A DNA stretch of 64,000 nt from Candidatus Latescibacterota bacterium (lineage in GTDB: Bacteria > Latescibacterota > UBA2968 > UBA8231): positions 3,616,001 to 3,680,000 of the forward strand of contig OZ241889.1 in NCBI GenBank assembly GCA_965203355.1, given 5' to 3'. Positions 5,617-35,943 of the stretch are shown here, piece after piece; the stretch's first letter is position 1; each line of letters begins with the position of its first letter. The position numbers and the translations under genes were made by a program. The notes beneath the pieces were generated by a model that ran no database searches, had not been told where the DNA came from, and saw only the letters and a list, made by a program, of their open reading frames with translations.

Positions 5617-5644
5617 ATTAGCCAACAAAGAAGCGAGGATAGCT

Positions 5645-12540: not shown

Positions 12541-12564
12541 GACCGCGCGCCAAAACAGACTTCA
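12533..12564 (-). promoter_or_regulatory. In-frame UGA plus candidate bacterial SECIS hairpin
   Basis: UGA-AGUCUGUUU-UGGCGCGC-GGUC-GUGCGUCA: 8-bp stem with two G-U pairs and a GGUC loop 17 nt after the UGA. Confidence 0.6.
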
Positions 12565-14580: not shown

Positions 14581-14695
14581 AGGCTCAGGCTAGTGAATGG
14601 ATTGAGCGCAGTTTTTGTCGCGGCAAGCGAGCATAGTATATTAGACGCCCAATACTAGTAGAAGTAGAAAAACCAACTCAAACGGAGACTACACC

Positions 14696-15775: not shown

Positions 15776-15785
15776 CGAGGTCCGC

Positions 15786-17345: not shown

Positions 17346-17353
17346 GGTCGTCT

Positions 17354-19147
17354 CTAGTTAAAGGGGCCGCCATGCACAAAGGCCCGCTGCCCCACAATCC
17401 CCGCACCCTGCACAATGTCATAGCGCGCCCCGGCCGCAAGCTGTTCGAGGCTTTCGACCGTCCCATCCGGCCAGCGAATTTCCAAGCGGTCGAGCCGCTC
17501 AGCCGCGCCCAAGCCAACGGTCACGGTCAGCGAACTGTGGCTCAAATAGGAAGATCCCGTGCGCACCATGAACACCTGCTCCTGCGTACCCACCCGCGCC
17601 GTCACCTTTGCGCCGATGGCGTCTCGGTTGGGTGCCTTGCCCGTCAGGTTGAGCGCGACTGCGCGGCCGGTCGGCCCCTCGTTGCGCAGCAGGTACGCCG
17701 GACCGCCATTGGTCGTCAGCAGCACGTCCAAGTCGCCGTCCGCGTCGATATCGCCGACAGCCAGCCCCCGCGCCACGAGCGGCTTGCGGAACGGATCGCC
17801 GGCCTGCTCCGACACTTCGACCATGCGCCCGTCGCCGTCATTCCAAAACAACTGCGGGGCCTGCTGGTACTCGATCTCCTTCTGCGTCGAGTTGATCTCG
17901 GGCTCAATGTGCCCATTGGCCAAGATCAGATCTTGGTACCCGTCGAGGTCGTAGTCGAAAAAGCGCAGGCCAAAGGTCAGCGGCTGTAGCGTTGCCTGCA
18001 TCAGCCGAGCTTGGCCCGCCGCATCGACGAAAACCGCGCGGCCGGCTTGGCGGTAGAGCGAGAGGGCCTCGCGGCTGAAGTTGCCAATGGCGATGGAGAG
18101 CACACCGTCGTTGGCTACCGAGGCAATATCCACGCCCATGCCCGCGCGCGCCCGTCCGGTCTCGTCATAGCCAATGCCGGCCGCAAGACCCCGCTCGGCA
18201 AAGCGACCGCCCCCTAAATTTTGCAACAGGAAATTGGGCTGCGTGTCGTTGGTGACGACCAAGTCAATGCGACCGTCGTCTTCAAAATCGGTCATGGCCA
18301 CGCCCATGGACTTGCCCTCGGGCAACAACAGGCCCGCTTCTTGGGTTATCTCCCGGAAGCGGCCCGCGCCCAGATTGCGGTAGAGCCTCGGCGTCGAGCC
18401 GGGATACTGCTGTGGCGTGGCGTAGGACTTTTCCGTGCCGTCGAGCGTGGTGTAAATGTCGGTGCTGGGCGACCAGCGCACGTAGTTGGTCACCAACAGA
18501 TCGAGCCAGCCATCGCCATCCACATCGACCCAAGCCGCGCCTGTCGACCATTCGGGATTCTCATGGCCCGCGTCATCCCGCCACACCGCACCGGCCACGC
18601 CCGCGGCCCGCGCTACATCGACAAAGCGGCCCGCGTCGTTGCGCAACAGCAGATTGGGCCCCAAGGTCGTCAGGTAAATATCCAAGTCGCCATCGGCGTC
18701 GTAATCGGCAATCGTCGCGCCCATGCCATAGACGGAAAAGTCTAGGCCCGCGCGCTTGGTTGCATCATCAAAGGTGCCGTTGCCGAGATTGCGGTAGAGC
18801 TTGCTGGGGGCCTTTTCGCCGCTCCAGCCTTCGCTGTTGACCAAAAGCACGTCCAGCCAGCCATCCCGATCGTAATCAAAAAGCGCGCAGCCGCTGCCCA
18901 TAGTTTCCGGCATCCACTTGTCGCCGCGTGCCCCGGTCTCGTGCGCGAACTCAAGACCGGCCGACCGCGCCACATCGACAAAGCGCACCGCCGGCGCCGC
19001 TTTCCGGCTGCGGCCGACTGCGTAGTCCGCGGCCGGTTGGGTGTATTCGGGCACCGGGGCGACCTCTTTGGGTTGCTCGTCGCCGCAGGCCACCCACAGC
19101 AACGCGCCGACCAAGAGGCCCCCGATCATATTATGAGCTTGCGGCAT
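17354..19147 (-). CDS. CRTAC1-family lipoprotein (FG-GAP repeats plus ASPIC/UnbV)
   Basis: WVAC lipobox; 'MPETMGSGCALFDYDRDG', 'GMGVD', 'RGLAVGDIDADGDLD', 'NRDAIGAKV', 'GSSYLSHS', 'IRWPDG'. Confidence 0.88.
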   Translation of the reverse strand: MPQAHNMIGGLLVGALLWVACGDEQPKEVAPVPEYTQPAADYAVGRSRKAAPAVRFVDVARSAGLEFAHETGARGDKWMPETMGSGCALFDYDRDGWLDVLLVNSEGWSGEKAPSKLYRNLGNGTFDDATKRAGLDFSVYGMGATIADYDADGDLDIYLTTLGPNLLLRNDAGRFVDVARAAGVAGAVWRDDAGHENPEWSTGAAWVDVDGDGWLDLLVTNYVRWSPSTDIYTTLDGTEKSYATPQQYPGSTPRLYRNLGAGRFREITQEAGLLLPEGKSMGVAMTDFEDDGRIDLVVTNDTQPNFLLQNLGGGRFAERGLAAGIGYDETGRARAGMGVDIASVANDGVLSIAIGNFSREALSLYRQAGRAVFVDAAGQARLMQATLQPLTFGLRFFDYDLDGYQDLILANGHIEPEINSTQKEIEYQQAPQLFWNDGDGRMVEVSEQAGDPFRKPLVARGLAVGDIDADGDLDVLLTTNGGPAYLLRNEGPTGRAVALNLTGKAPNRDAIGAKVTARVGTQEQVFMVRTGSSYLSHSSLTVTVGLGAAERLDRLEIRWPDGTVESLEQLAAGARYDIVQGAGIVGQRAFVHGGPFN

Positions 19148-19184
19148 ACCATGTGCGTCCTTCGGCGAGCGGCCCGGCCAACCC

Positions 19185-22911: not shown

Positions 22912-23688
22912 TTATATCCACGCTTGAGGTTGTTGTTTGAGGACGCGCTCGGCGAGTGGACCGAAGTACGACCGGGTTGTTGTGAAGAAAGGGACCAACC
23001 GGCCAGCGTCATCCGGCATCAGTACGGAGCGCATCCAAGCATCCATAATATCCGAATCGTCCGGGTCGCCAATTTGATCCGCCTCTTCCTCGAGATTGTT
23101 CCACTGCTTCTCCCGCACTGACCTAAGCCGTTTCGCGTTGAGGTTCAAAATCTCGATGGTGCGAGTCACGCGAACGGCGGGAATACCCGCCGATTTGCAC
23201 GCATTCTCATTGACTTCGATCCGTCCATCAACAAGCACTTTTGTAAGTGACGGTAGCGCGGGCAATTTCCGAGGCTCTAAAAACTCTGCGTCATTGAGGT
23301 CTCTCTTCTTCTGACCACAGCTCATATTATCCTTTACTGGCTCAAGATACCGATCTTCATCGCTGCTTCTTTCAGAGGAAGCAAACACGGATGATGTTCC
23401 GCCTTTGCAGCAAGCGATCATGTTGGTGATGTCCACCTCTCTTGATGCTCCTTGCTGCTGACCTCTCCGCGGAATGATGTGCTCAATCTGGCGATCTAGA
23501 TCTGTAAGATTGATCTCGCAGTAGCCGCACAACCCGTGCTGAACATCAATCAATTTTTCAATGAGTTCGCTATAGGATGCACCAGCATTGTGGTCGCGGA
23601 AATCATTCCAACTTGCATTGTCGCCTACAACTTTGAGGTATTCGGCAAGGCCGGGAGTGGGCTTGTTTCGTTCGCTGATCCTCTTCAT
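22912..23688 (-). CDS. HNH endonuclease of TIGR02646/PtuB type
   Basis: 'QHGLCGYCE', 'IEHIIPR', 'NMIACC', 'SCGQKK', 'TIEILNLN'; ATGA overlap with the upstream ATPase. Confidence 0.8.
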   Translation of the reverse strand: MKRISERNKPTPGLAEYLKVVGDNASWNDFRDHNAGASYSELIEKLIDVQHGLCGYCEINLTDLDRQIEHIIPRRGQQQGASREVDITNMIACCKGGTSSVFASSERSSDEDRYLEPVKDNMSCGQKKRDLNDAEFLEPRKLPALPSLTKVLVDGRIEVNENACKSAGIPAVRVTRTIEILNLNAKRLRSVREKQWNNLEEEADQIGDPDDSDIMDAWMRSVLMPDDAGRLVPFFTTTRSYFGPLAERVLKQQPQAWI

Positions 23689-24980
23689 TGCGACTCGGCC
23701 ATCTGCTTGAACATCTTGCGTCGCCGGATTTCGAGGTCGGCCCTATTAAGAGCGTAATCGCGTGGTGAGATCTGTTCGAGCTTACGCCTAAGTGCCAAGG
23801 CTTCTTCGGATTCTCCCTCACCCTCGCTAACCAGACGCCGGTATCGATTCAAGACTTTCGTGAAGTCGTTATCGGGCCGTTCATTTACACCCATCACCAC
23901 GGAAAGAACGTCCCCCGCCTCAGCCCCATAAGTCGCCCCCTCTGGTGGCCCGGCAACAATGCGGTCCCTCTCCCTATACAACTTCACAATGCACTGCGGC
24001 TCGACCGTGGTCAGCACCTGCGGGCTGTGAGTGGAAACAATGAACTGCGTATTCGGAAATGTCCGCGCCAGATCTATCAACACCCGCTGCTGCCAAGAAG
24101 GGTGTAAGTGAAGTTCTACCTCGTCAATCAGGACAATCGCCTCGGATGCGAGCGGGTCGTCCAAATGCGGATTGCCCTGCACCATTCGCCGCGCCAGATC
24201 GGCCGCCAGTGCCAGCACAATGCGATAGCCACCGCTCAACTGGTCGAGCGAGAGCTTTTCTACTTGTCCTTGCTCCGATTCCCAAGACACCACAAAACGA
24301 GGCGGATTCGACTCAGTACGAGGATCGGACACTTCCGGAAGCATAGACGAGATCGCTTTGCGCACCGCAGATACTTCTTTTAGCTGATAATCAAAATCGC
24401 GGAGTTCCTTTTGTTCCCTCAATTCCTCGTCCTCCTTGAAATAGAACCAAGCGAAAAGATCCTCAAAGTCCGTGCGGGCAGAAAGCGCCCCTTTCAGCGC
24501 ATCTAACCGTAGAATTTGACGCGGCAACTGGCGCGGTGATACCACCGATTCTGGTACATCTGAAACTATCCGATCAGTACCATAAAGGACACCCATCGGC
24601 ATATCATTGCGCTCTGCATGGCTATTCTCGACTAGTGCCTTGTCCAGATCTTCCTGGTGGGCCAACATCCTTTCCTCCGCCTTCCTCCGCTTAACCACCG
24701 ACTTAGTCCCTTGTTGCTCAAGAACACATCCGTCCGTTAAAGTAAGCGATACCCGCGGATTTCCTGCGCCCTCGCGCCAATCCCCTTCGCAAAAATAAAT
24801 GAAGACATCGAGAAATGGTCCGAGCATATCCTCATGTCCTAATCCCACCGCAATCGCGCTCAGAACGCTCGTCTTACCACACCCATTGTCGCCGTGCAAA
24901 ACTGTCAACGACGGGGCGAGCGGCAGTTTGAGTTTCTCAATGGCGCGATAGTTTTCGATCTCCACAGATTTCAGTTTCAC
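23685..24980 (-). CDS. ABC/AAA-family ATPase of PtuA type
   Basis: GGAGG RBS then GTG; Walker A GDNGCGKT; signature LSGG; Walker B/D-loop IVLIDEVELHLHPSWQ; H-loop STHSPQV. Confidence 0.85.
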   Translation of the reverse strand: MKLKSVEIENYRAIEKLKLPLAPSLTVLHGDNGCGKTSVLSAIAVGLGHEDMLGPFLDVFIYFCEGDWREGAGNPRVSLTLTDGCVLEQQGTKSVVKRRKAEERMLAHQEDLDKALVENSHAERNDMPMGVLYGTDRIVSDVPESVVSPRQLPRQILRLDALKGALSARTDFEDLFAWFYFKEDEELREQKELRDFDYQLKEVSAVRKAISSMLPEVSDPRTESNPPRFVVSWESEQGQVEKLSLDQLSGGYRIVLALAADLARRMVQGNPHLDDPLASEAIVLIDEVELHLHPSWQQRVLIDLARTFPNTQFIVSTHSPQVLTTVEPQCIVKLYRERDRIVAGPPEGATYGAEAGDVLSVVMGVNERPDNDFTKVLNRYRRLVSEGEGESEEALALRRKLEQISPRDYALNRADLEIRRRKMFKQMAESQ

Positions 24981-24991
24981 AAGCGCACCTC

Positions 24992-26176
24992 CTAGGCTCT
25001 CCTTGTTCCTATCCCCAAAAACTCCCACGTCTGCCGCGCCACCACCAATTCCTCGTCGGTGCGCAGCACGTAAATGGGCACTCGGCTCGACGCGGCGTGT
25101 AGGCTGCCTTCCCCTTGCACGGCCTCATTTTCAGCCGCATCCATCACCACCCCCAAAAATCCCAAGTCGCGCAGAATTTCGCCGCGCACTACAGCCGAGT
25201 GCTCGCCCATGCCGCCGGTAAAGCTGATCGCGTCTAGCCCACCCATCTCCACCACAAAAGCCCCTAGCCAATCGCGCGCCGCCGTCGCCAGCACGGCTAT
25301 GGCCAAGGTACAGCGCCCGTCGCCGCTTTCCGCGCCCGCCTCAATGTCGCGCATATCGCTGTGCCCGCAAAGCCCCACTAGGCCGCCCTCGTTAGCGCAC
25401 TGCGCCAACACCTCGTCCCACGGTCGGCCCTCGTTGCGCATCACCAAGTCGAGCGCATACGGGTCTAAGTCGCCGATGCGGTTGTTTTGCGGCAACCCCC
25501 CCTGCGGACTTAACCCGTGCGACGCCCCCTGCGAGACCCCGTCCTTTATCGCACACAGCGACGAGGACCCGCCCAAGTGCATGTTGACGTGTTTGAGGTC
25601 AGCGCGGCCGACCCGTTCCGCGACCTTTTCAGCGGCGTAGCGATGGCTAGCCCCGTGGAAGCCGTAGCGCTGGATGCCGTACTGCTCGTACCAAGCGTAG
25701 GGCACCGCGTACATTTTGCGCCGCTGCGGCATGGCACCGTGAAACGCCGTCTCAAAACAGCCGACTCGCCGCGCCTTGGGAGCCGCCCGCGCAAACTGCC
25801 GAATCGCCGCTACATACGCGGGATTGTGCGCCGGGGCTAGCGGATAAAAGTCTTCCATCCGCCCGACCACGTCCTCGTCGAGCTCGACCACCCCAGAAAC
25901 AGCGCGGGCGTGTACCGCCTTAAAACCCACGGCGTCCAAGGCTTCTACCCCGCCCTCGGCCAAACGCGCCAGGGCCTCGTCAATCGCACGGGCGTGGTCG
26001 GGCAGTTCCACGGCCTGCGCAACAACCTCGGCGGCCTCGCCGATCTGGCAGGTGTGGATCGAGCCTGGTCCGCCGATCCGATCCATGCTGCCCCGCGCCA
26101 AAACCACTTCCTCGGGCATGGCAAAGACCTTGTACTTAAACGAGGTGCTGCCGAGATTGGCAACGAGGATTTTCAT
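24992..26176 (-). CDS. ackA: Acetate/propionate kinase family
   Basis: 'MKILVANLGSTSFKY', 'LAPAHNP', 'FETAFH', 'RYGFHGASH', 'HLGGSSS', 'FTGGMGE', 'TDEE'. Confidence 0.85.
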   Translation of the reverse strand: MKILVANLGSTSFKYKVFAMPEEVVLARGSMDRIGGPGSIHTCQIGEAAEVVAQAVELPDHARAIDEALARLAEGGVEALDAVGFKAVHARAVSGVVELDEDVVGRMEDFYPLAPAHNPAYVAAIRQFARAAPKARRVGCFETAFHGAMPQRRKMYAVPYAWYEQYGIQRYGFHGASHRYAAEKVAERVGRADLKHVNMHLGGSSSLCAIKDGVSQGASHGLSPQGGLPQNNRIGDLDPYALDLVMRNEGRPWDEVLAQCANEGGLVGLCGHSDMRDIEAGAESGDGRCTLAIAVLATAARDWLGAFVVEMGGLDAISFTGGMGEHSAVVRGEILRDLGFLGVVMDAAENEAVQGEGSLHAASSRVPIYVLRTDEELVVARQTWEFLGIGTRRA

Positions 26177-26177: not shown

Positions 26178-27377
26178 TTAGGGCCGCGCGGGGCTGCCGT
26201 CGGGCAAGCGCGTCTGCGTCCACCCGATGACCTCGTCGGCACAGGGGTACTGGGCCGCTAAGTCCTCGTCGATGTCGATCCCCAACCCGGGTCCGTCGCT
26301 CGGATACAGGTATCCATTGCGCACCTCGGGCAACCCCGGAAACATCTCGTACACGTGCTGCGGGAATCGGCACCACTCTTGGATCCCAAAGTTAGGCGCC
26401 CACAAGTCCAAATGCAGGTTGGCCGCGTGCCCCACCGGCGAGGTGTCGCCCGGGCCGTGCCAAGCCGTGCGCACCCCGTACATCTGCCCAAAAGCGGCGA
26501 CATGGCGCGCTGGCGTGATCCCGCCCATCTGGCTGACGTGCATGCGCATGAAGTCGATGAGCCGTCCCTCAATGAGCGGCCGCCACTCGTGCGGATGGTT
26601 GAACAACTCGCCCATAGCCTGCGGCGTCGCGCACTGCTGGCGGATATGGCGGAACCACTCAATGTCTTCGGGCGCGAGCGCGTCCTCCAAAAAGAACAGT
26701 TTGAACTCCTCCACGTCCTTGGCAAAACCCACCGCCTCAATCGGGTGTAGCCGCTCGTGGACATCGTGCAGCAGTTCCACTGCAAAGCCCAGTTCTGCGC
26801 GGATGTGCGCGAACATCCGCAGGTGGTTCATCGCGTACTCTTTGCGGTTGTAGTACGCACCTTCGGGCGCGCCCTCGGGCTTGACCAAGGTCGTTGCCTT
26901 GCCGCCGTACCCGCCCATCTGGCAGCGGATGTAGCGATAGCCTTGCTCCTGAAACTGGCGGATGCTATCGACGACAGCCTCGGGCGTGTCGCCCCCGGCG
27001 TGGCCGTACACGGCCGCGCCCTCGCGGCACTTGCCGCCCAAAAGCTGATAAACCGGCATCCCCGCCCGTTTGCCCTTGATGTCCCACAGCGCCTGATCGA
27101 CGCCAGAGATGGCGTTGTTGAGCACTGGGCCGTTGCGCCAATAGCCGTTGACCATCAACATCTGCCACGTTTCTTCGATGCGGTCCACGTCGCGGCCAAT
27201 GAGAAAGGGCTTGAGATGCTGCTCAAGGGCCGCATGGACGGCGTGGAAGCGCTGGGTAAAAGTCGCGCAACCGAGTCCGAACAGACCGTCATCCGACGTT
27301 GTGATCTTGACGATGACCAAGCGGGAGCCAGCGGGTTGGGTGAGAATGGTGCGGACGTCTTTAATGGTAACGGGCAT
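26178..27377 (-). CDS. Enolase-superfamily acid-sugar dehydratase (RspA/mannonate dehydratase ManD-like)
   Basis: 'YWRNGPVLNNAISGVDQALWDIKGK', 'LLHDVHERL', 'FFLED', 'MGELF', 'WHGPGDTSPVG'. Confidence 0.88.
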   Translation of the reverse strand: MPVTIKDVRTILTQPAGSRLVIVKITTSDDGLFGLGCATFTQRFHAVHAALEQHLKPFLIGRDVDRIEETWQMLMVNGYWRNGPVLNNAISGVDQALWDIKGKRAGMPVYQLLGGKCREGAAVYGHAGGDTPEAVVDSIRQFQEQGYRYIRCQMGGYGGKATTLVKPEGAPEGAYYNRKEYAMNHLRMFAHIRAELGFAVELLHDVHERLHPIEAVGFAKDVEEFKLFFLEDALAPEDIEWFRHIRQQCATPQAMGELFNHPHEWRPLIEGRLIDFMRMHVSQMGGITPARHVAAFGQMYGVRTAWHGPGDTSPVGHAANLHLDLWAPNFGIQEWCRFPQHVYEMFPGLPEVRNGYLYPSDGPGLGIDIDEDLAAQYPCADEVIGWTQTRLPDGSPARP

Positions 27378-27412
27378 GAGCGCTCCTTAGTTGGTGGTGA
27401 AAATCAGGGGGT

Positions 27413-27442
27413 ATTCTGCACATCGGCCCGCGTTTTTGTCAA
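27413..27442 (-). promoter_or_regulatory. Putative sigma70 promoter for the dehydratase-ackA operon
   Basis: TTGACA-18 nt-CAGAAT on the minus strand, ~35 nt upstream of the start codon. Confidence 0.45.
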
Positions 27443-27493
27443 GGGTGCGCCGTCCTTGTCGAGGCGGGCGGCGACGGTTAACTTAATCCCTCC

Positions 27494-28303
27494 ATGCCGT
27501 GGCAACAAGCACTCATCTTAGGGCTGGTCCAAGGGCTGACGGAATTTTTGCCCATCAGCAGTACAGCGCACCTGCGAGTAGTCCCTCATTTTCTCGGATG
27601 GGACGATCCGGGCACGGCGTTTTCTGCGGTGATTCAGCTAGGGACGCTCGCGGCCGTGTTCGCGTATTTCACCGCCGATGTCAAAAAACTGCTCGTCGCC
27701 GCAGTACACGGGGTGATGCACCGCAACTTCAACCACAGCCCGGACTGCCGCATGGCGTGGTCCATTGCCGTGGGCACCATTCCCATTGCCGCGCTCGGCC
27801 TCGGCGGACGCGACTTTATCGAGACCGAGGCGCGCCAACTCCCCCTCATCGCCGCAAGCCTGATCGTCCTCGCGCTGTTTTTGCTACTGGCCGAGCGCGT
27901 GGGGCGGCGCGAGCGCACCATGCAAGAGCTCGGCTTCTGGTCGATTCAACTCATCGGCCTGTGTCAAGCGCTCGCCCTGATCCCCGGGTGTTCGCGGTCT
28001 GGCTCGACGATCATGGGTGGACTTTTTGTCGGCCTCCAGCGCGCGGATGCGGCCCGCTTCTCCTTCTTGCTCGGCCTGCCAGCCATTGGCGCCAGCGGCC
28101 TCCTGCAACTATTCGACCTGCTCGAAGGCGGTCTAGGCCGGGCCGGGCTGCTGAGTTTGGGCTTGGGGATTTTCGCCGCGGCCACGAGCGGCTATTTATC
28201 CATTGGCCTCTTACTCCGCTTCCTCCAGCGCCACGGCACGTACTCGTTTGCCGCTTATCGCATCCTGCTCGGCGGACTCATCTTCTACTCACTGTACGGC
28301 TAA
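27494..28303 (+). CDS. uppP: Undecaprenyl-diphosphate phosphatase
   Basis: 'LGLVQGLTEFLPISSTAH', 'QALALIPGCSRSGSTI', 'AARFSFLL'. Confidence 0.95.
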   Translation: MPWQQALILGLVQGLTEFLPISSTAHLRVVPHFLGWDDPGTAFSAVIQLGTLAAVFAYFTADVKKLLVAAVHGVMHRNFNHSPDCRMAWSIAVGTIPIAALGLGGRDFIETEARQLPLIAASLIVLALFLLLAERVGRRERTMQELGFWSIQLIGLCQALALIPGCSRSGSTIMGGLFVGLQRADAARFSFLLGLPAIGASGLLQLFDLLEGGLGRAGLLSLGLGIFAAATSGYLSIGLLLRFLQRHGTYSFAAYRILLGGLIFYSLYG

Positions 28304-28320
28304 TTCCAACGGAGCTATTC

Positions 28321-29097
28321 ATGTATCCCAACCCCCTGAAATCGCGTTTGCAGCGTGGCGAAATCCTCCTCGGCACCAGCCTGCCGGCCCCCACCCCCCA
28401 CGCGGCCGGGTCGGTCATCACCACTGGCCCCGATTTCCTCTGGGCCGACACCGAGCACATGCCCCACGCCACCGAAGCACTCGACTCAATTTTGGTGCTG
28501 GCGCGGATGCGCGGCGTCGCGCCGATGGTGCGCGTGGCGTGGAACGATCCCGCGCTGATTAAGAAGGCGTACGACGCCGGGGCAGTCGCCGTAATGGTGC
28601 CCCAAGTCGATACGGCCGCCGAAGCCACGGCCGCGGTCGAGGCCGCCCGCTACGCACCCGAAGGCCGACGCGGTCTCTCGCCCATGTGGACCCACATCGC
28701 CGGCGCGGACTGGAACGAAGTCATCAAAACCGCCAATGCGGAAACGCTCGTCGTCCTCCAGCTCGAAAGCCAGCGAGCCTACGACAATTTGGATGAGATC
28801 AAGCGCGTGCCCGGCATTGACGTGATTTTCGTCGGGCCGTTGGACCTGTCGGCCACCGTGGGGACGATCACCGACACCGGGTCGCGGCCAGTGCAGCAAA
28901 TCATGCGCACCGTGCCGCAACAGCTAGCGGACACGGGTATCGCCGTGGGCACTACGCTGATGGGCGTGTCCGAGATCCAAGAGAAGATTCGCTGGGGCTA
29001 TCGCTTCCTCAATGTCGGCAATGCCCTCCGCTACGGCGTACAAGTCCTCGCCGATCACCTAGCGACCTTGCGCGCCGATCCACGCGGCGACAAATAA
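28321..29097 (+). CDS. HpcH/HpaI-family aldolase
   Basis: GGAG RBS; 'DFLWADTEH', 'PMVRV', 'YAPEGRRG', 'QLES', 'IFVGPLDLS'. Confidence 0.88.
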   Translation: MYPNPLKSRLQRGEILLGTSLPAPTPHAAGSVITTGPDFLWADTEHMPHATEALDSILVLARMRGVAPMVRVAWNDPALIKKAYDAGAVAVMVPQVDTAAEATAAVEAARYAPEGRRGLSPMWTHIAGADWNEVIKTANAETLVVLQLESQRAYDNLDEIKRVPGIDVIFVGPLDLSATVGTITDTGSRPVQQIMRTVPQQLADTGIAVGTTLMGVSEIQEKIRWGYRFLNVGNALRYGVQVLADHLATLRADPRGDK

Positions 29098-29105: not shown

Positions 29106-30169
29106 GACGGCGAGGAACGCTTCGCCCGCTTGCAAGCGGGCCGTAGGCTGTCGATCTGACGTTCATAAAGAAAATGGGACCTCAAACCGAAAATTGAGGT
29201 CCCATTTTCGTAACTCGCGGTGCCGTGGGTGCTACTTGAGCAGCAGCAGCTTGATGTCGACAAACGCTTCGTCCGCCTGCAAGCGGGCCGTAGGCTGTCG
29301 ATCTGACGTTCATACGAAAATGGGACCTCAAACCGAAAATTGAGGTCCCATTTCCGTAACTTGCGGTGTCGCGGGTGCTGCTTGAGCAGCAGCAGCTTGA
29401 TGTCGACAAACGCTTCGTCCGCCTGCAAGCGGGCCGTAGCCTGTCGATCTGACGTTCATAAGAAAATGGGACCCCAGAACATCGGGGTCCCATTTTCGTA
29501 ACTCGCGGTGTCGCGGGGCTACTTGAGCAGCAGCAGCTTGATGTCGACAAACGCTTCGCCCGCTTGCAAGCGGTCCGTAGGCTGTCGATCTGACGTTCAT
29601 AAGAAAATGGGACCCCAGAACATCGGGGTCCCATTTCCGTAACTCGCGGTGTCGCGGGGGCTACTTGAGCAGCAGCAGCTTCTGGACGGCGAGGAAATCG
29701 CCGCCCGCTTGCAAGCGGGCCGTAGCCTGTCGATCTGACGTTCATAAGAAAATGGGACCCCAGAAAACTGAGGTCCCATTTCCGTAACTCGCCAACATCG
29801 TGTCGCGTGTGCTACTTGAGCAGCAACATCTTCTTGACGGCGAGGAACGCTTCGTCCGCTTGCAAGCGGGCCGTAGGCTGTCGATCTGACGTTCATAAGA
29901 AAATGGGACCTCAAACCGAAAATTAAGGTCCCATTTCCGTAACTTGCGGTGTCGCGGGTGCTGCTTGAGCAGCAACATCTTCTTGACGGCGAGGAAATCG
30001 CCGCCCGCTTGCAAGCGGGCCGTAGCCTGTCGATCTGACGTTCATAAGAAAATGGGACCCCAGAAAACTGAGGTCCCATTTCCGTAACTCGCCAACATCG
30101 TGTCGCGTGTGCTACTTGAGCAGCAACATCTTCTTGATGTCGAGGAAATCACCGCCCGCTTGCAAGCGG
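29106..30169. repeat. Tandem array of 7 full and 1 partial ~141-151-bp units: palindrome + variant gene 3' end + terminator hairpin + constant linker
   Basis: TGCAAGCGG recurs at 29131, 29278, 29424, 29565, 29710, 29861, 30010 and 30161; near-invariant CTGTCGATCTGACGTTCATA..AAAATGGGACC; 29701-29836 identical to 30001-30136. Confidence 0.95.
30050..30081 (-). terminator. Terminator hairpin after the surface-protein gene (repeated in each array unit)
   Basis: Minus strand AAAUGGGACCUCAG-UUUU-CUGGGGUCCCAUUU followed by UCUU, ~30 nt after the TAG. Confidence 0.7.
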
Positions 30170-33100
30170 TAGAAATACATTCCCGACGACACGCTCTGGC
30201 CGCTATCGTTGGTCGCGTCCCACTCCACCGCGTAACGACCCGCCGCCTGATGCTCGGCGACCAGCGTCCGCACCGGCTGACCCAACACGTTATACACCGT
30301 CAGCCCCACGTCCGCCGCCTGCGGCAACGCATACTGAATCGTCGTCTGCGGATTGAACGGGTTCGGATAGTTGGCTGCCAGCGAGAACACGGCCGGGCGC
30401 GTCTGTAACGACACCGGCGCGGGCAATGCCAGCCGGTTGAAGCCCAACGCCCGGTCATACGTCTGGCTGTCGGTGACTTCGAGCGTCGTGTGCGCGATCT
30501 CGGTCGTCGGCCGGAAGACTAAGCGCAGCATCAGCTCGCCGTCCGAAACGACGTCGCCGTGAGCGGCTACCGTCAACACGCCCGCTTGGTCGGCCAGCAC
30601 CTGCGGCGTAGCGAATGCGCTGCCGCCCAGCGGCTGATCGGTCCGCGCCTCGACGAAGGTCAACTGGTCGGCGTCATAGGCTACCTGCAAGCCGTAGCCT
30701 TTGACCGCCACGAAGTCGGCTAACCGCACATTAACGACGAACTCTTCTCCCACGCTCGGCAGGGCGGCTGGCGCGTCCAAATACAGTCGCGCGTCCCCAT
30801 TCAGCCCGGTCCGCAACGGCACCGGCTTGCCTGAGACCGCGAGGCTGCGACCGAAATGGTCGGCCAACACGAAGAAATCGTCGAAGTCAATCGTCCCATT
30901 CGGCGCCAGGTCAAACGCCGGATCAAACCCGGCGTCGCCCGCCGTCAAGCCGAAGCGGTCGGCCAACACGAAGAAATCGTCGAACCCAATGCGCCCGTCG
31001 GCGCCGAACAGCCCCAACAGAGCCTGTCCTTGACTATCGGCCACCCGGTTGCGCACGGCCAGCGCGGTATGCTCGACCGAACCGGTCTCGTTGTCTAAGT
31101 CGAAAGCACGCACCTGATAGGTATAATGCACCCCATGCTGCGCCGTCTCATCGACGAAAGACGAACGTCCCGCCTCCACCTCGGCGACCACGGAAAACGC
31201 TTCTGCTCCGACGGCTCGGCGATAGATGCGGTAGCCATGCACACCGACGACCGGCTCGACCGGCGCCGGGCCTAGCGCGCCAGCCACAACCCCTTGCAGC
31301 ACCTGATCCGACGGCGACAGCGTCCACGTCAGCGCGATGCGACCACCCTGATCGTCCGGCGCATCCAACACCTGCAACGCCGACACGGCCAATGGCGCGA
31401 TGTCGTCGGTCGCCCGCACAGCCTCGGCCGTCCAAGTAATCGACGAACTCAGCACACTACTGACGACATTTAGCTTCGGCGCCACGCCGCGAGCGTAAGC
31501 CAATGCTTCCGGCAGCAACGACGCCAGCACCGGCCCTTCCTGCGCGGCATTCCGGCTGGCTTGCAGTGTCTTGGCCATCTGCGCGTAAGGCGCGGTCAGG
31601 TCGTCGGCCTCGACGAACACGGCTTTGGCCATCGTGTGCGTGGTGCGCCCCCCGCGCTCGGCGGCAATGCCCCAGCGCGTCGAGACGTTATCCAGCGTCG
31701 CCACGATGGCGCGGCCCATCGCTACGCCGGGCACGGCATCCACTCGCGCCCACGGCACCATCTCATTTTCCAGCACCGGCAATGCGCGGAAGATGCGATA
31801 GCCGTCCAGCGACTTATGATCGGCCGACAACTCCCAAGACAGCATCACGAAACCGCCTTGGTCGCCTTGGCCGTCTGCACCTTTGTAGTCTTCGGCGACC
31901 AGATTGGTCGGCGCCGACAGCGGCGGCTCCACCACCGCCATGCCCACCGGCAGCGACTGACTCGCGCCGCTGGCATCTACGACCGTGTAAGTCGCGACCG
32001 TCTCGCCCATCACCGTCGGCGTCCCGGAAATCGTCCGGGTGGCCGGGTCAAACGACAGCCCGGCCGGCAGCCCCGACACGCTATACGTCAGCGGCGGAGT
32101 GCCCCCGGAGACGGCCGGCAACGTCAGGTTTGCCGGCACGTTAATGGTGAATTGAATCATGTTGTCGGTGTGCGAATCCGCCGGATTGGCTTTGCCGACT
32201 CCGCCGAACGCACCGAACAACGCACCGAGGTCGACAAAATCCAGCATCGCGTTGACTGTAATCGCGAACGTCAGCGAGACGCTTTTATCGCCAGCCATCG
32301 CCGTGTAGGTGACTTCAACGGCCCCATCGGTCGCCGCGTCTGGTGTGCCCGAAATCGTCCGGGTCGCCGCGTCAAACGACAGCCCGGCCGGTAGCCCCGA
32401 CACGCTGTACATGATGGTTCCCTCGCCGCCCAACGCCACCGGCAGCACCAACGGCGTAATCGCCGTGCCCGCCGTGTAGGTGTGTGCGGCGACCGAAGTG
32501 CCCTCGACAAAAGCCAAGGCGATCATCATGTCCTCATCGCCGTCCATCATGCCGCTGTCCATGTCGGTCAGCACCAGCGTCGCCGAATCCGAAGTCAAGC
32601 CGGGCAGCATCGCGTTGAGGATGATCGTCTCGTCGCCCTCGGCCATACTGTCGGCTGTCGGATTAACCAACAGGCGGGTCGAACCCATGATCGAACCGGC
32701 GGCAATGGTAATTATCGGATCGAACAAGGCCGAATAGTCCGTGTCGCGCATGGCACTGCTCGAAACCTCATCAATCGAGATGGTCGCCGTGGCGTCCTCG
32801 GCCAATGGCTTGCCGTCCAGCGCGGCCATGACCATCACTTCGGTCAATTCTGCCGTCTCGGGGATCGCGCTCGGCATCACCGACAGCACCAGAGACGTGC
32901 TGGCGGTCTCGTCGTCGGAAATGCGGATATCTACTTGACCCCAGCCGCCCGAAGCCGCCGCCCGGATCCCTACATACTTATGACCGGCCGCCGCAGCGTT
33001 GTCGATCGGCGACAGGAAAAGCGTCGTCCAGCCCATCGTCTCGCCGGCCGGAATGGTGACGATCCCCGCCAATGTCGCGGTGTAATCCACGTCGCGGGTG

Positions 33101-35943
33101 GCCATCGCGCCGCTGGCTGGCGGCACAATCGTGAAGCGGACCATCTCGGCGGCCGGAGCCGCGCCCGACAGAGTCGCCGTAACCCGGATTTCGGTCGTCT
33201 CGCCGTTTTCGCGCACGGCCGATTGCGAAGCCATCACACTCGCGACGCCAATCGTCACCGGCGCGGCTTCACCCACCGTGATGGTGAAGGTCCGTCCGCC
33301 GATGTCGCCGTCGCTATCAATCGCCGTATAGACGACCGTGGCCATGCCCGCCAGCGTCGGCGTACCCGAAAGCGTCCGGGTGGCCGCGTCAAACGACAGA
33401 CCCAGCGGCAAGGTCGCCGAAACGCTGTACATCAGCGTTCCTTGGCCGCCCATGGCCGCGGGCAAGACCTCGCTGAACGCCTGACCCACCGTCGCTTCAA
33501 AAGCCAACGCAGCATCGCCAAAGCTCGGCTGTCCCGTGTCCGCTGGCGTTTCGGACGAATCGTCCGTCATCACCGCGTCTTTCAGCGTGATCTTCGCGGT
33601 GCTGACCACGATCTTTTTGTTCTCTTGGTTCTTGAGATTGTCCGTGATCTGCTTCAGCGTGATCGTCTCGTCGTTGTCGGCTTTGCCGTCGTAGATCGGC
33701 GTAACCGTGATCGTCGTCTGGCCAACGACCTCGCCGCGCGGAATCGTCAGCGAGCTAAGCATCGCCGTGTAGTCCAGTTCCCGATCCGCCGAACCGGCCG
33801 CATCCTCATCCAAACCCAGCGCGATGGTCGCATCCGCGTCGAGCACCTTGCCGTCCAACGTGGCGGTCACCGTCACGGTCGTCGCTCCGGCGTCCTCTTT
33901 GATTTCGCCCGGGCTGACCGACAGCGTGATGTTTTTGCTCAGCGTCTCATCGTCGGTAATCGTGAACTTCGCATCCTTCATCTGCGTCGATTCCGAGCCG
34001 ACCTTCGCTTGCACCGTGAACGTCCACGGATTATTCACAGCGCTGTTGTTCGTCGGGGTGACGCGCAGCATGGCCGTGCCTTTGGTGGTGCCGGCCGGGA
34101 TCGTCAAGCCCTCGAGGATCTCCACTTCGTAATTCACGTCGCGCGTCCCCTCACCCGCCGTAATCTGAAAGTCCACCGCCTTAGAGCCGGTTAAAGCCGT
34201 CTCCAATTCAACGTTCATCGCAACGTCAGTCGCCCCGACTTCCTCGCGTATCGACTTCGGACTCAGCGTAAAATTCTTGATCCGCGCCACTGCAACATCC
34301 TCGACCGTGACGATGCCGGAGTTGATCGTAAGCGGAATGACAAAAGTGTCCACATACTTTAGCGTTCTGTGTGTGTCCGGGTCTATTGCCCGCTTCTTAA
34401 CGAAAGTATCCTCGACGTCGGAATCGCCGTTAAAGTCGATGCTAAAACCCCAATTTGTTTCCCCGATTCCGTCTTCCGAGGTCTTGATGTCCGCGCACAC
34501 TTGTAGCTTCGTGTCCGTTGCATCAAATAAGCAGAGACCTACCTCGGATAACATCTTACCCTCGGGCACCTTATACGTATCCAAATAATCGCCATCCCTG
34601 AAAAAGTCGATCCCCAAGTCGGCTTCTGCCAACACGGTCCCCGCAGGTGCGAAGTCGGAATCTTTATAATTATTAGCACCATAACCTGTAGCCCTATCGG
34701 CTTTTATCCCAACATACCCGTCACCATCGGCGTCGGTTCCAACATCCCCATCGCCGTTTAAGTCTATGCCCATTGTCTTGACGCTGTAAGTCTGGTTGTT
34801 TGTGGAGATACTGAATGGTGTATATGTGACATGCTCTGGCGCATTAGACTGCACTGGCAGCATAAAACCATCGTCCTCAAAGGTACCATCGAGATTAAGG
34901 TCGATCCGGACCCGCCGCCCCTCGCTGTTCTGCCGTTTTAACTTCACGACCAGCTTATTGTCACTGGGCTTTAGCACGATCTTGCCCGCCTTATTTTTCG
35001 GAGCGAGGGTGAACGTAGTCGTCGCGTCGAACTTACGCTGCGGAACGGTCAGCTTCCCCAAGCCGCTAAGCGAGTAATGCACATCGCGCGTCAACGTATC
35101 GCTGGTAGCCCCTTTGCCCTCGACAGGAGCCAGTCGGGTTTCAATGGCTTGGGTGGTTTGGGTCTTAAACGCGCGGCCATTCAACGTCCCCGTCAATTCA
35201 ATCGGAGTCGCATCCGCCTGCTTGCTGAGCTTGGACGGCGCAAAAGAAAGGTCAAGCGCACTCGGCAACTGATCATCGTCGATGATCTCCACATACATTC
35301 TCGAATACGTTCTAATAATGTGTTCTTGTACGTCAAAGCGTATAACAGGATGCTCGCCGCCAATGTATTCGGCCGAACTTTTGAAACCAATTTTATAGTT
35401 ACCCCCTTCAAACCGAAACACGACCGGGATATTAACTCCACCGTCTAAATCCTCTTTATCGCCAGGTCGCCTAAAGTTGGCCTGCCTCCTTATACTCGCA
35501 GCCATATCATTAAAAGCATTCAGACTCGCAGCCTGCCGCTCATAGTGATTGAAGACTTTTTTGGAGAAATCGCACTCGGTGGCTGTGGCTGAGCAAGGCC
35601 CGACTCGCTTATTGTTTATCGGGGTTATGGTCAGCGTTCCTGTCGTCTTTTTGTCGCCCTTCTTAACCACGAGATTGGGGGTAGATAAGGTGAAGAACTC
35701 ACCGTAATACTTTGAGTAGGGACGCTCCGCATCGAAAAGCATCCCAACGGGAATATCTTCGGTCGCCGCCGTCCCCCCCTTTGTTTCTAAGGTCACCGTA
35801 ATATCTTGTGCCCCTCCGTCCTCGCGGATCAAAACCCGGTCAAAGGAGACGAATAGGCTATCTTGGGCCGCGGCCTCCCCGGCCAACAGCAAACAAGGCA
35901 AAAAAGCCAAACGCCGCATCGCATAAATAAATGAACGTACCAT
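30112..35943 (-). CDS. 1943-aa secreted surface protein/adhesin: Calx-beta-like repeats, He_PIG Ig domains, FN3-like, EF-hand/dockerin-like, cohesin-like and FlgD/T9SS-type C-terminal domain
   Basis: AAGGGAGG RBS; signal peptide ending AAAQ; repeated 'TVTATL..G...RDVDY...TIP'; 3x 'LP.GLSFD.ATRT.SGTP'; 2x 'FDDFFVLAD.FG'; 'NYPNPFNP...WDATNDSG..VSSGMYFYRLQAG...KKMLLLK'. Confidence 0.88.
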   Translation of the reverse strand: MVRSFIYAMRRLAFLPCLLLAGEAAAQDSLFVSFDRVLIREDGGAQDITVTLETKGGTAATEDIPVGMLFDAERPYSKYYGEFFTLSTPNLVVKKGDKKTTGTLTITPINNKRVGPCSATATECDFSKKVFNHYERQAASLNAFNDMAASIRRQANFRRPGDKEDLDGGVNIPVVFRFEGGNYKIGFKSSAEYIGGEHPVIRFDVQEHIIRTYSRMYVEIIDDDQLPSALDLSFAPSKLSKQADATPIELTGTLNGRAFKTQTTQAIETRLAPVEGKGATSDTLTRDVHYSLSGLGKLTVPQRKFDATTTFTLAPKNKAGKIVLKPSDNKLVVKLKRQNSEGRRVRIDLNLDGTFEDDGFMLPVQSNAPEHVTYTPFSISTNNQTYSVKTMGIDLNGDGDVGTDADGDGYVGIKADRATGYGANNYKDSDFAPAGTVLAEADLGIDFFRDGDYLDTYKVPEGKMLSEVGLCLFDATDTKLQVCADIKTSEDGIGETNWGFSIDFNGDSDVEDTFVKKRAIDPDTHRTLKYVDTFVIPLTINSGIVTVEDVAVARIKNFTLSPKSIREEVGATDVAMNVELETALTGSKAVDFQITAGEGTRDVNYEVEILEGLTIPAGTTKGTAMLRVTPTNNSAVNNPWTFTVQAKVGSESTQMKDAKFTITDDETLSKNITLSVSPGEIKEDAGATTVTVTATLDGKVLDADATIALGLDEDAAGSADRELDYTAMLSSLTIPRGEVVGQTTITVTPIYDGKADNDETITLKQITDNLKNQENKKIVVSTAKITLKDAVMTDDSSETPADTGQPSFGDAALAFEATVGQAFSEVLPAAMGGQGTLMYSVSATLPLGLSFDAATRTLSGTPTLAGMATVVYTAIDSDGDIGGRTFTITVGEAAPVTIGVASVMASQSAVRENGETTEIRVTATLSGAAPAAEMVRFTIVPPASGAMATRDVDYTATLAGIVTIPAGETMGWTTLFLSPIDNAAAAGHKYVGIRAAASGGWGQVDIRISDDETASTSLVLSVMPSAIPETAELTEVMVMAALDGKPLAEDATATISIDEVSSSAMRDTDYSALFDPIITIAAGSIMGSTRLLVNPTADSMAEGDETIILNAMLPGLTSDSATLVLTDMDSGMMDGDEDMMIALAFVEGTSVAAHTYTAGTAITPLVLPVALGGEGTIMYSVSGLPAGLSFDAATRTISGTPDAATDGAVEVTYTAMAGDKSVSLTFAITVNAMLDFVDLGALFGAFGGVGKANPADSHTDNMIQFTINVPANLTLPAVSGGTPPLTYSVSGLPAGLSFDPATRTISGTPTVMGETVATYTVVDASGASQSLPVGMAVVEPPLSAPTNLVAEDYKGADGQGDQGGFVMLSWELSADHKSLDGYRIFRALPVLENEMVPWARVDAVPGVAMGRAIVATLDNVSTRWGIAAERGGRTTHTMAKAVFVEADDLTAPYAQMAKTLQASRNAAQEGPVLASLLPEALAYARGVAPKLNVVSSVLSSSITWTAEAVRATDDIAPLAVSALQVLDAPDDQGGRIALTWTLSPSDQVLQGVVAGALGPAPVEPVVGVHGYRIYRRAVGAEAFSVVAEVEAGRSSFVDETAQHGVHYTYQVRAFDLDNETGSVEHTALAVRNRVADSQGQALLGLFGADGRIGFDDFFVLADRFGLTAGDAGFDPAFDLAPNGTIDFDDFFVLADHFGRSLAVSGKPVPLRTGLNGDARLYLDAPAALPSVGEEFVVNVRLADFVAVKGYGLQVAYDADQLTFVEARTDQPLGGSAFATPQVLADQAGVLTVAAHGDVVSDGELMLRLVFRPTTEIAHTTLEVTDSQTYDRALGFNRLALPAPVSLQTRPAVFSLAANYPNPFNPQTTIQYALPQAADVGLTVYNVLGQPVRTLVAEHQAAGRYAVEWDATNDSGQSVSSGMYFYRLQAGGDFLDIKKMLLLK

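What the first reader, a model, noticed from the sequence alone, without database searches (positions are those of the whole stretch)
29106..30169. Array of variant copies of a surface-protein gene's own 3' end (secretion-signal tail plus terminator): candidate cassette or recombination system
Seen: after the stop of the 1943-aa gene come 7 further units at 141-151-bp spacing. On the gene strand each unit is palindrome, tail codons, stop, variable spacer, terminator hairpin, then a constant linker (TATGAACGTCAGATCGACAG.CTACGG). Tails in order: gene RLQAGGDFLDIKKMLLLK*; RLQAGGDFLAVKKMLLLKQ; RLQADEAFLAVKKMLLLK*; RLQAGGDFLAVQKLLLLK*; RLQAGEAFVDIKLLLLK*; RLQADEAFVDIKLLLLKQ; RLQADEAFVDIKLLLLK*; truncated RLQAGEAFLAV. 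Changes are block-wise and frame-preserving (one 3-nt indel) and keep the hydrophobic pattern. Blocks (GGD/GEA/DEA, FL/FV, DI/AV, three hairpin loops, several spacers) are reassorted, which random decay of one duplication would not easily produce. Established: this segment forms the final beta-strands of a T9SS-type C-terminal sorting domain. Inference: the units are silent tail cassettes, or scars left by repeated integration, excision or conversion of paralogous surface-protein genes at an expression locus. No recombinase gene is adjacent.
Basis: partly seen in the sequence, partly recalled or inferred. Interest (0 to 1): 0.9.

Follow-up and report, generated by a model that had tools for sequence, protein, structure and literature searches.

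The report
Tandem tail-and-terminator copies behind adhesin gene
Behind a giant surface-protein gene of an uncultured bacterium lie seven shuffled, probably untranslated copies of the gene's last 18 codons plus its terminator; they look like a by-product of recombination among at least 16 sister genes, not a dedicated switching system.

Summary
The array is real: window 29106-30169, seven full units of 141-151 bp plus a truncated eighth, starting inside the last 18 codons of the 1943-aa gene. The gene's end passes the T9SS type A sorting-domain model.

The gene is one of 16 proteins on the same 4.17-Mb contig whose last 97 residues are 94-100% identical. Two spurious ORFs elsewhere on that contig, P0122 and P0124, carry the same linker, palindrome, tail and hairpin, then sequence absent from the window. 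So there are at least three such loci.

Short-read contigs from two studies reproduce the distal junction exactly. They also show the three hairpin types followed by sequences other than the linker, and unit mosaics not present in the window.

The units are strongly mosaic: 139 of 300 site pairs fail the four-gamete test, Rm = 5. Variation sits in the part shared with paralogue 3' ends; the linker is almost invariant.

Best reading (0.55): one founding junction, then homologous unequal exchange and gene conversion. The downstream units are probably silent behind a strong terminator. A pilS-like cassette system is not supported, but not excluded.

The parts
30112..35943 (-). 1943-aa surface-protein gene (three He_PIG Ig domains, FlgD_ig/T9SS type A sorting domain at the C-terminus); one of 16 paralogues on the same 4.17-Mb contig
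30115..30369 (-). T9SS type A C-terminal sorting domain. HMM envelope is residues 78-151 of the 162-aa query; the last 11 residues lie beyond the envelope.
   Evidence: TIGR04183 36.7 bits, cut-off 23; PF18962 27.4, cut-off 27; FlgD_ig 46.8
30019..30169 (-). Unit 0: the gene's own last 18 codons (RLQAGGDFLDIKKMLLLK), TAG, spacer, terminator hairpin (30050-30081), linker
29870..30018 (-). Unit 1 (tail GGDFLAVKKMLLLK, stop replaced by CAG; hairpin 29901-29936)
29719..29869 (-). Unit 2 (tail DEAFLAVKKMLLLK, TAG; from the stop codon to the unit's end identical to unit 0)
29574..29718 (-). Unit 3 (tail GGDFLAVQKLLLLK, TAG; hairpin 29605-29636). One residue away from the real tail of paralogues P0014-P0016.
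29433..29573 (-). Unit 4 (tail GEAFVDIKLLLLK, 3-nt deletion, TAG)
29287..29432 (-). Unit 5 (tail DEAFVDIKLLLLK, CAG instead of stop)
29140..29286 (-). Unit 6 (tail DEAFVDIKLLLLK, TAG). Its hairpin 29172-29207 is also the first terminator-like hairpin met by the convergent + strand gene.
29106..29139 (-). Truncated unit 7 (RLQAGEAFLAV...), fused 8 bases from the stop of the convergent gene. This junction is reproduced exactly by short-read contigs of runs X1, X2 and X4.
27499..29097 (+). Convergent gene with an HpcH/HpaI-type aldolase domain (the true start is probably later than the ORF start)

Best explanation
The array is a recombination-made 'satellite' of the 3' module of a multicopy surface-protein (adhesin-like) gene family.

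The module holds the last 18 codons of the T9SS-type sorting domain, the stop codon, a short spacer and a strong bidirectional intrinsic-terminator hairpin. A 27-28-nt linker joins each module to the next, and the join lengthens the palindrome that encodes R-L-Q-A.

Inferred steps:
1. One founding junction between linker and palindrome arose. Either the gene's own end was duplicated at a short microhomology, or a downstream tandem paralogue was deleted down to its tail.
2. Ordinary homologous (RecA-type) unequal exchange between the roughly 120-bp direct repeats amplified the unit.
3. Unequal exchange between units, plus short-patch gene conversion with the real 3' ends of paralogues, shuffled the blocks and spread units to other family members.

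From the sequence alone, only the first tail should be translated. Transcription from the gene should stop at the first hairpin (predicted, not measured), which would leave the other units silent.

Side effects rather than purposes:
- a stack of terminators between two convergent genes;
- the possibility that an unequal exchange puts another unit's tail in frame at the end of the gene.
For: Shown:
- Array anatomy and unit boundaries.
- All 7 linkers lie head-to-tail on one strand and are exact over 20 nt.
- Mosaicism: 139 of 300 site pairs are incompatible, Rm = 5.
- Variable columns are concentrated in the part homologous to paralogue 3' ends: tail 14 of 41, spacer 12 of 26, hairpin loop 7 of 12. 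The array-private parts hardly vary: linker 2 of 28, palindrome 1 of 14.
- The hairpins are intact in 7 of 7 units (100% of cells paired). They have 15-19-bp stems followed by a U-rich run; whole-unit folds have z = -4.6 to -5.2.
- 16 proteins on the same 4,171,184-bp contig have a 94-100% identical last 97 aa, against 60-78% overall.
- Gene tails in that genome: DIKKMLLLK in 12, DVKKMLLLK in 1, AVQKMLLLK in 3. The last is unit 3's type.
- P0122 and P0124 lie on the same contig. Their translations carry linker (MNVRSTAY / MNVRATAY), palindrome, tail and hairpin, followed by sequence absent from the window.
- Short-read contigs carry the same flank and truncated-unit junction with 0 differences in X1, X2 and X4 (two studies).
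- Loose ends show each hairpin type followed by sequences other than the linker: place 29167 in 4 of 4 runs, 29605 and 29750 in X2, 29759 in X1.
- One search also shows joints that give unit mosaics absent from the window, for example 30143>29116 at depth 318 against 435 for the flank in X1.

Inferred: the single origin of the junction, the RecA-type mechanism, and the silence of the downstream units.
Against: - No recombination event was observed directly. There are no long reads and no strain comparison of array length.
- The near-invariant linker could mean selection on the linker (a binding site or an RNA) rather than youth of the array.
- The distal tail types (GEA/DEA, FV, one K missing, LLLL) were found in none of the 16 gene tails of this genome, nor in the 120 family tails listed of 1090 hits. 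Their donor is therefore unidentified. They still keep frame and hydrophobic pattern, which hints at some protein-level filtering. This is weak: it rests on one in-frame indel, and 2 of 7 stops are lost.
- No array-derived ORF from any other genome was found. The 19-mer linker is absent from the genome and metagenome collections except for chance single hits. Age and taxonomic spread are therefore unknown.
Confidence: 0.55

Rival explanations
1. Programmed variation module (pilS-like). The units are kept as 3' homology blocks or tail cassettes that promote or anchor gene conversion among the adhesin paralogues. The perfect palindrome at the start of each unit would be the site where breaks or exchange begin.
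For: - Promoterless partial 3' copies lie in tandem, joined by a conserved linker.
- The units are mosaic.
- A 16-member family has homogenised 3' ends.
- Units occur at three or more loci.
- Tails keep frame and hydrophobic pattern.
- In Neisseria, cleavage at short palindromic sites in pilE and pilS is reported to initiate pilin variation (abstract of PMC13321361; abstract only).
Against: - The copied piece is only the last 18 residues of a sorting domain that is removed from mature cargo in the studied systems (abstracts of PMC4804311 and PMC8545088).
- 15 of the 16 paralogues are 1413-1943 aa long (one is a 213-aa piece), so there is no single expression site.
- 2 of 7 units lack the stop codon.
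- No recombinase, nuclease or restriction-modification gene was recognised next to the array.
- No switching was observed.
Confidence: 0.13
2. A REP/BIME- or BOX-like structured intergenic element, or an array of small RNA genes. It would have a function of its own, such as mRNA 3' protection, termination, protein binding at the linker, or a regulatory RNA, and would happen to have captured the gene's tail.
For: - There are two palindromes per unit, an almost invariant linker (2 of 28 columns vary) and a location between convergent genes.
- The fold is strong (z about -5).
- Hairpins are kept in 7 of 7 units, with one U-A / C-G / U-G pair series.
- BIMEs are regularly spaced REPs at gene ends that bind several proteins (abstract of PMC2817692).
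Against: - All units are in one orientation, not alternating.
- The unit contains 18 codons homologous to the gene's end.
- Neither hairpin nor linker occurs outside the array in 64 kb.
- There is no Rfam match and no sigma-70-like promoter in the region (0 found).
- Covariation is no better than in shuffles (150 of 500).
- No IS200/RAYT-type hit among the window's 48 ORFs.
Confidence: 0.12
3. In-situ tandem duplication followed only by point mutation and drift, with no exchange with other loci.
For: - The array is head-to-tail with a single junction type.
- The distal units are the most diverged from the gene: 25-32 differing columns for units 4-6, against 7-21 for units 1-3.
Against: - 139 of 300 site pairs are four-gamete incompatible.
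- There are clustered multi-nucleotide block differences beside an invariant linker.
- The same hairpin and tail types occur at other loci.
Confidence: 0.1
4. Assembly artefact: ends of paralogues were wrongly stacked by the assembler.
For: The region is multicopy. 670, 416, 254 and 295 contigs were laid on 2.7 kb, and 145, 72, 39 and 51 of them fit two places. No single contig spans the array.
Against: - Contigs of 9224, 14192 and 705 nt from three runs (two studies) run from the unique flank into the truncated unit and the linker with 0 differences.
- An 87-nt contig matches 29622-29708 exactly.
- Linker-bearing units exist at other loci of the same contig. A stacking error would not invent a linker.
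Confidence: 0.05

Closest known systems
Neisseria pilE/pilS silent pilin cassettes (tandem partial copies joined by short conserved repeats; gene conversion into pilE). The abstracts of PMC3547852, PMC3899283 and PMC13321361 were seen; the tandem layout with RS1 linkers is recalled.
   Same: Promoterless partial 3' copies of an expressed surface-protein gene lie head-to-tail with a conserved linker. The copies are mosaics produced by homologous recombination.
   Different: - pilS copies carry the exposed variable region; here only 18 residues of a sorting signal are copied.
- Every unit here carries its own terminator.
- There are 16 paralogues (15 of them 1413-1943 aa) instead of one expression locus.
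- No G4, sRNA or restriction-site initiator is known here.
REP arrays / BIMEs of enterobacteria and pseudomonads (abstracts of PMC2817692 and PMC3337134 seen)
   Same: Regularly spaced palindromes with conserved linkers lie at the 3' ends of genes, often between convergent genes. They are mosaic, and could act in termination or mRNA stability.
   Different: - REPs alternate in orientation, are extragenic in origin, number more than 100 per genome and go with RAYT transposases.
- Here the units are all in one orientation, contain coding sequence of the neighbouring gene, and are tied to one gene family.
- No RAYT was seen in the window.
Families of T9SS cargo genes with near-identical C-terminal extensions, such as the KLIKK proteases of Tannerella forsythia (recalled; brought up by scan note e1-1223306, which cites PMC9890683; that paper was not read)
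   Same: Several paralogues in one genome have divergent bodies but nearly identical T9SS sorting domains. This implies concerted evolution of the 3' ends.
   Different: To my knowledge, no tandem array of tail-plus-terminator copies behind such genes has been described. Two full-text searches found none.
Ordinary tandem segmental amplification by microhomology followed by unequal crossing-over
   Same: There is a single junction type, a head-to-tail layout, a higher-order 300-bp period and alternating G/C at alignment column 149.
   Different: - Units exchange sequence with many dispersed paralogous ends.
- Units are present at several loci.
- Variation is confined to the part shared with those ends.

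Membership tests
T9SS type A C-terminal sorting domain (TIGR04183 / PF18962), for the gene's end | Profile match above the curated cut-off | tested here: met
   TIGR04183 36.7 bits against 23; PF18962 27.4 against 27 and FlgD_ig 46.8 against 27
T9SS type A C-terminal sorting domain (TIGR04183 / PF18962), for the gene's end | Domain at the extreme C-terminus of a protein with an N-terminal signal-like start | tested here: met
   The match ends 11 residues before the stop. The hydrophobic N-terminus is visible in the translation; no signal-peptide predictor was run.
T9SS type A C-terminal sorting domain (TIGR04183 / PF18962), for the gene's end | T9SS machinery (PorU/PorV/SprA/PorKLMN) present in the genome; CTD cleaved on export | not testable with these tools
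   No whole genome is held. A passage of PMC11285876 says T9SS 'may also be present' in Gemmatimonadetes.
REP / BIME arrays | Successive palindromes in alternating orientation | tested here: not met
   All 7 linkers are on the minus strand; the units are head-to-tail.
REP / BIME arrays | Extragenic, high-copy (more than 100 per genome), dispersed | tested here: inconclusive
   There are 0 hairpin or linker copies outside the array in 64 kb, and the unit includes 18 codons of the gene. Genome-wide copy number could not be counted.
REP / BIME arrays | Associated RAYT (IS200/IS605-like tyrosine transposase) | tested here: inconclusive
   None among the 48 ORFs of the window. The rest of the genome was not available.
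Silent-cassette antigenic variation (pilE/pilS type) | Promoterless partial copies in tandem with conserved linkers | tested here: met
   no promoter-like site.
Silent-cassette antigenic variation (pilE/pilS type) | Cassettes encode the exposed, variable part of the mature protein | tested here: not met
   The units cover only the last 18 residues of the sorting domain. The CTD is cleaved from cargo in P. gingivalis (abstracts of PMC4804311 and PMC8545088).
Silent-cassette antigenic variation (pilE/pilS type) | One expression locus and many silent donors; transfer observed | tested here: not met
   16 paralogues on the same contig, 15 of them 1413-1943 aa. Transfer itself is not testable here.
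Diversity-generating retroelement (template and variable repeat at a gene's 3' end) | Reverse transcriptase nearby; differences confined to adenines of the template | tested here: not met
   No RT domain among the 48 ORFs. The differing columns involve all four bases: columns 18-44 show G/A, T/C/A, A/C, T/G, C/T and C/G.
Integron gene cassettes (attC) | IntI integrase beside the array; cassettes bounded by attC with GTTRRRY core sites (consensus recalled) | tested here: not met
   No integrase in the window. The GTT...AAC ends around the hairpin (GTTACGG, GTTCATA) do not fit the recalled core and lie outermost, not innermost.

The most novel reading that the evidence does not exclude
The tail-plus-terminator units are a maintained 3' recombination module of a symbiont adhesin family. 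Each unit offers a palindrome where breaks or strand exchange start, plus a homology block. Together the arrays would drive frequent exchange of gene bodies and ends among 16 or more paralogues, a pilS-like diversification system in a phylum where none is known. Units would be recycled through the gene-terminal position, which would explain why even the distal tails stay in frame and hydrophobic.
Probability: 0.12. Interest if true: 0.8.

Novelty: new variant of a known kind. Interest (0 to 1): 0.4.

Why it matters
If the reading holds, this shows how concerted evolution acts on the 3' ends of a large surface-protein family in an uncultured bacterium. The organism is probably a Gemmatimonadota, and related DNA occurs in runs labelled sponge metagenome.

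The sorting-signal tail and its terminator behave as one recombining module. That module can be amplified, shuffled and passed between loci.

It also matters for annotation. Such arrays break short-read assemblies, and they yield spurious ORFs: P0121, P0122 and P0124 are in public protein collections.

If the bolder reading were true, it would be a new kind of recombination-based surface variation outside the classical pathogens.

Tried and rejected
- Whole genome: none is held, and so no relatives either. The direct test, BLAST of each unit against the chromosome, could not be run.
- Collection scans with the 19-mer linker gave 6 single matches in unrelated genomes and 10 single matches in metagenome contigs. 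None had unit context.
- Rfam: only two sub-threshold miRNA-model hits on the hairpins (E 0.065 and 0.28). Nothing reached gathering scores in the whole window.
- No tRNA.
- No RNA holder is listed among the runs, so nothing can be said on expression.
- The simple terminator scan did not flag the main hairpins, because its stem extension swallows part of the T-run. The folds show the hairpins.
- Probe search for array-derived ORFs among proteins of 30-101 aa: 0 of 47 candidates.
- P0123, from the representative search, is an unrelated low-complexity protein on another contig.
- Covariation in the hairpins is not above shuffles.
- DGR, integron and CRISPR-like readings were rejected (see membership tests).
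- Literature: 0 papers for Gemmatimonadota + sponge + type IX secretion, and nothing relevant among the 15 listed of 43 for T9SS, gene conversion and tandem repeat.
- Scan notes: none for this genome. One irrelevant sequence look-alike. The word search gave only loose analogies.
- Parts of the array without contig cover in X5 are not interpreted.
Full report
**Observation**

The region 29106-30169 is a tandem array with period 151, 7.2 copies, 87% matches and score 1342. It is the only non-coding tandem array in the window.

On the minus strand it begins inside the 1943-aa ORF 30112-35943, at a perfect 14-nt palindrome that encodes R-L-Q-A. The units are 151, 149, 151, 145, 141, 146 and 147 nt long, followed by a truncated 34-nt copy.

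Each unit has this order:
- palindrome;
- 17-18 tail codons;
- TAG (5 units) or CAG (2 units);
- a spacer of variable length;
- a hairpin;
- a linker.

The 20-nt core of the linker is exact in 7 of 7 units and absent from the rest of the window at up to 3 mismatches, with 0 expected by chance. The hairpin arm gives 14 hits, all in the array. The array lies between convergent genes: its truncated last unit ends 8 bases from the stop (29097) of an aldolase-domain ORF.

**The gene and its family**

The gene has three He_PIG Ig domains and a C-terminal FlgD_ig domain. Its end passes the curated cut-off of the T9SS type A sorting-domain model: TIGR04183 36.7 bits against 23, and PF18962 27.4 against 27.

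I searched the last 97 residues against the large protein collection, taking longer proteins only. This gave 1090 hits at E <= 1e-10 among 1343 candidates, of which 120 are listed.
- Sixteen of the listed proteins, including the window's own, lie on one 4,171,184-bp contig. Their last 97 residues are 94-100% identical.
- Full-length identity to the window's protein is only 60-78%.
- Named relatives (P0053, P0054, P0058; CTD 86-87% identical) are called Gemmatimonadota or Gemmatimonadetes MAG proteins by their source.
- Runs labelled sponge metagenome hold related DNA. X5, when laid, shows 19 differences over 812 bases of the flank.

So the organism is probably an uncultured Gemmatimonadota, with relatives in sponge metagenome runs. 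This is an inference.

The gene tails of the 16 paralogues are ...GGDFLDIKKMLLLK (12)...DVKKMLLLK (1) and ...AVQKMLLLK (3). The last differs from unit 3's tail by one residue. The tail types of the distal units (GEA/DEA, FV, one K missing, LLLL) occur in none of the 16, nor in any of the 120 listed tails.

**The same unit elsewhere in the genome**

No genome is held for the window, so I used the spurious 187-aa ORF that runs through units 3-6 (P0121) as a probe.
- Near-length search: 2 of 985 candidates passed, P0121 itself and P0122.
- Shorter proteins: 0 of 47.
- Exhaustive search of 1.84 billion representatives: 4 hits, namely P0121 itself, P0122, P0124 and an unrelated low-complexity protein P0123.

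P0122 (169 aa) and P0124 (129 aa) lie on the same 4.17-Mb contig. tblastn against the window shows which parts of them match the translations of linker, palindrome, tail, spacer and hairpin, including the linker peptide MNVRSTAY or MNVRATAY. In P0122 the match covers about its first 85 residues, and in P0124 its first 53. The rest of each protein has no match in the window.

Hence at least two more loci of this chromosome carry linker-bearing units, with the same kind of junction. P0122 begins inside a GGDFL-type tail, followed by hairpin, linker and a second tail. That is the layout expected behind another paralogue.

By inference from the alternative-frame peptide, P0124's unit would carry a DEA-type start with an AVQK-type end. 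That is one more combination of the same blocks.

**Evidence from public reads (Logan contigs only)**

- Contigs of 9224 nt (X1), 14192 nt (X2) and 705 nt (X4, another study) run from the unique flank through the truncated unit into the first linker with 0 differences. This confirms the distal junction.
- An 87-nt contig matches 29622-29708 exactly.
- No contig spans the array, so its copy number is unverified.
- Many contigs at least 90% alike pile up on the array and on the last ~900 bases of the gene: 670, 416, 254 and 295 laid, of which 145, 72, 39 and 51 fit two places. Summed depth is no copy number, but the contigs show that these parts are multicopy.
- Loose ends show hairpins followed, on the gene strand, by sequences other than the linker: at 29167 in 4 of 4 runs, at 29605 and 29750 in X2, and at 29759 in X1. 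So all three hairpin types also end ordinary loci.
- By eye, the consensus at 29167 reads in P0124's frame like the residues that follow P0124's hairpin (11 of 14).
- Joints give unit mosaics that the window lacks. For example, 30143>29116 has depth 318 in X1 against 435 for the flank, and 79 against 69 in X2. Its tail combines GEA, FV, DI and KK. These come either from other arrays or from variant arrays in the population.

**Internal structure of the array**

- 43 of 156 alignment columns vary among the 7 full units. By segment: tail 14 of 41, spacer 12 of 26, hairpin loop 7 of 12, hairpin arms 3 of 16 each, stop 1 of 3, palindrome 1 of 14, linker 2 of 28.
- Of 25 informative sites or indel events, 139 of 300 pairs fail the four-gamete test, and at least 5 recombination events are needed.
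- There are three hairpin types. One of them (units 0 and 2) looks like a left arm of one type joined to a right arm of another.
- Column 149 alternates G/C along the array, and TRF also sees a 300-bp period. This suggests amplification in two-unit steps.
- Units 1-3 differ from the gene's own unit at 7-21 columns, and units 4-6 at 25-32.
- All 7 hairpins are fully paired. One pair runs through U-A, U-G and C-G, but covariation is not above shuffles (150 of 500).
- Each unit folds with a 15-19-bp hairpin followed by a U-rich run, with whole-unit z = -4.6 to -5.2. On the + strand the same hairpins can serve the convergent gene.
- No promoter-like site lies in the region, and no Rfam family matches.

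**Interpretation**

Three findings point to one founding event and against repeated independent insertions or excisions:
- all units share one junction type;
- that junction recurs at other loci;
- all units lie in one orientation.

The mosaicism, and the presence of the same tail and hairpin types at dispersed loci, exclude simple decay of a local duplication.

Variation is confined to the part of the unit that is homologous to the paralogues' real 3' ends, while the array-private linker is nearly invariant. This fits short-patch gene conversion from those ends, and between arrays, into a fairly young array. It could also mean that the linker is under selection.

My best explanation (confidence 0.55) is a recombination-made satellite of the family's 3' module, amplified and shuffled by ordinary homologous exchange, in which only the first tail is translated.

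How the founding junction arose is open. There are two candidates:
- a microhomology duplication of the gene's own end, since CTAC precedes the palindrome both in the gene and in the linker;
- a deletion that left only the tail of a downstream tandem paralogue.

**Why it is not a dedicated cassette system**

- In the studied T9SS cargos the CTD is cleaved off after export (abstracts of PMC4804311 and PMC8545088), so changing its last 18 residues would not change the exposed protein.
- The C-terminal end is functionally critical. Removal of two residues inactivates RgpB, and the HBP35 signal maps to the last 22 residues (passages of PMC11285876). That may filter which tails survive at the gene end.
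- 2 of 7 units have lost their stop codon.
- The family has 15 members of 1413-1943 aa (plus one 213-aa piece), not one expression site.
- No recombinase was recognised nearby.

What I cannot exclude is that unequal exchange now and then moves another unit into the gene-terminal position. Such intermittent selection would explain why even the distal tails stay in frame. The statistical weight is small, though: it rests on one in-frame indel in the tail, against four indels of 1, 6, 4 and 1 nt outside it.

A pilS-like role as a recombination anchor remains the boldest reading that the data allow (0.12).

**Comparison and novelty**

- The layout resembles pilS cassette arrays and BIME/REP arrays, but it fails defining features of both (see membership tests).
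- It also fails those of DGRs and integron cassettes.
- Full-text searches found no description of tail-plus-terminator arrays behind T9SS cargo genes.
- The scan's earlier notes hold only loose analogies: e1-1223306, a T9SS tail remnant copied before tandem lipoprotein genes, and e1-725190, shared recombining 5' heads of surface-protein genes.

I rate the array a new variant of a known kind, namely tandem intergenic repeats or partial-gene copies shaped by homologous recombination. It is of moderate interest.

Noticed in passing
window 22912-25028 (minus strand): A two-gene PtuA/PtuB-like pair (Septu / retron Ec78-effector type): an AAA ATPase (PtuA model 276 bits, below the equivalog cut-off of 500) and an HNH endonuclease (TIGR02646 66 bits, above the cut-off of 52). 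It lies about 4 kb from the array and is a candidate anti-phage defence system.
   Followed up: partly
window 49478-57282 (minus strand): A cluster of three dynamin-family GTPase genes. One is fused to a long ankyrin-repeat array (930 aa; the 99-bp coding tandem repeat at 49621-50765). The cluster is interrupted by an IS4/5-type transposase ORF at 54525-55145. Ankyrin-rich 'eukaryote-like' proteins would fit a host-associated lifestyle.
   Followed up: no
window 29182-29745, and proteins P0122 and P0124 elsewhere on the same contig: Spurious ORFs that read through the repeat units in shifting frames are present as predicted proteins in public collections. They are useful as probes for such arrays but are not real genes (no Pfam hit).
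   Followed up: yes
window 12562-22046 (minus strand): Several large FG-GAP / ASPIC-UnbV repeat proteins and a 953-aa TPR protein with a weak MtrC/MtrF-like multihaem-domain hit (26 bits, below the cut-off of 30).
   Followed up: no
window 21-6400 (plus strand): Six consecutive ORFs (189-883 aa) with no Pfam family at E <= 1e-5.
   Followed up: no
window 26178-27521: The longest-ORF pick was misleading here. The real gene is probably the 399-aa ManD-like dehydratase at 26178-27377 on the minus strand (411 bits), not the overlapping 175-aa and 254-aa ORFs.
   Followed up: partly
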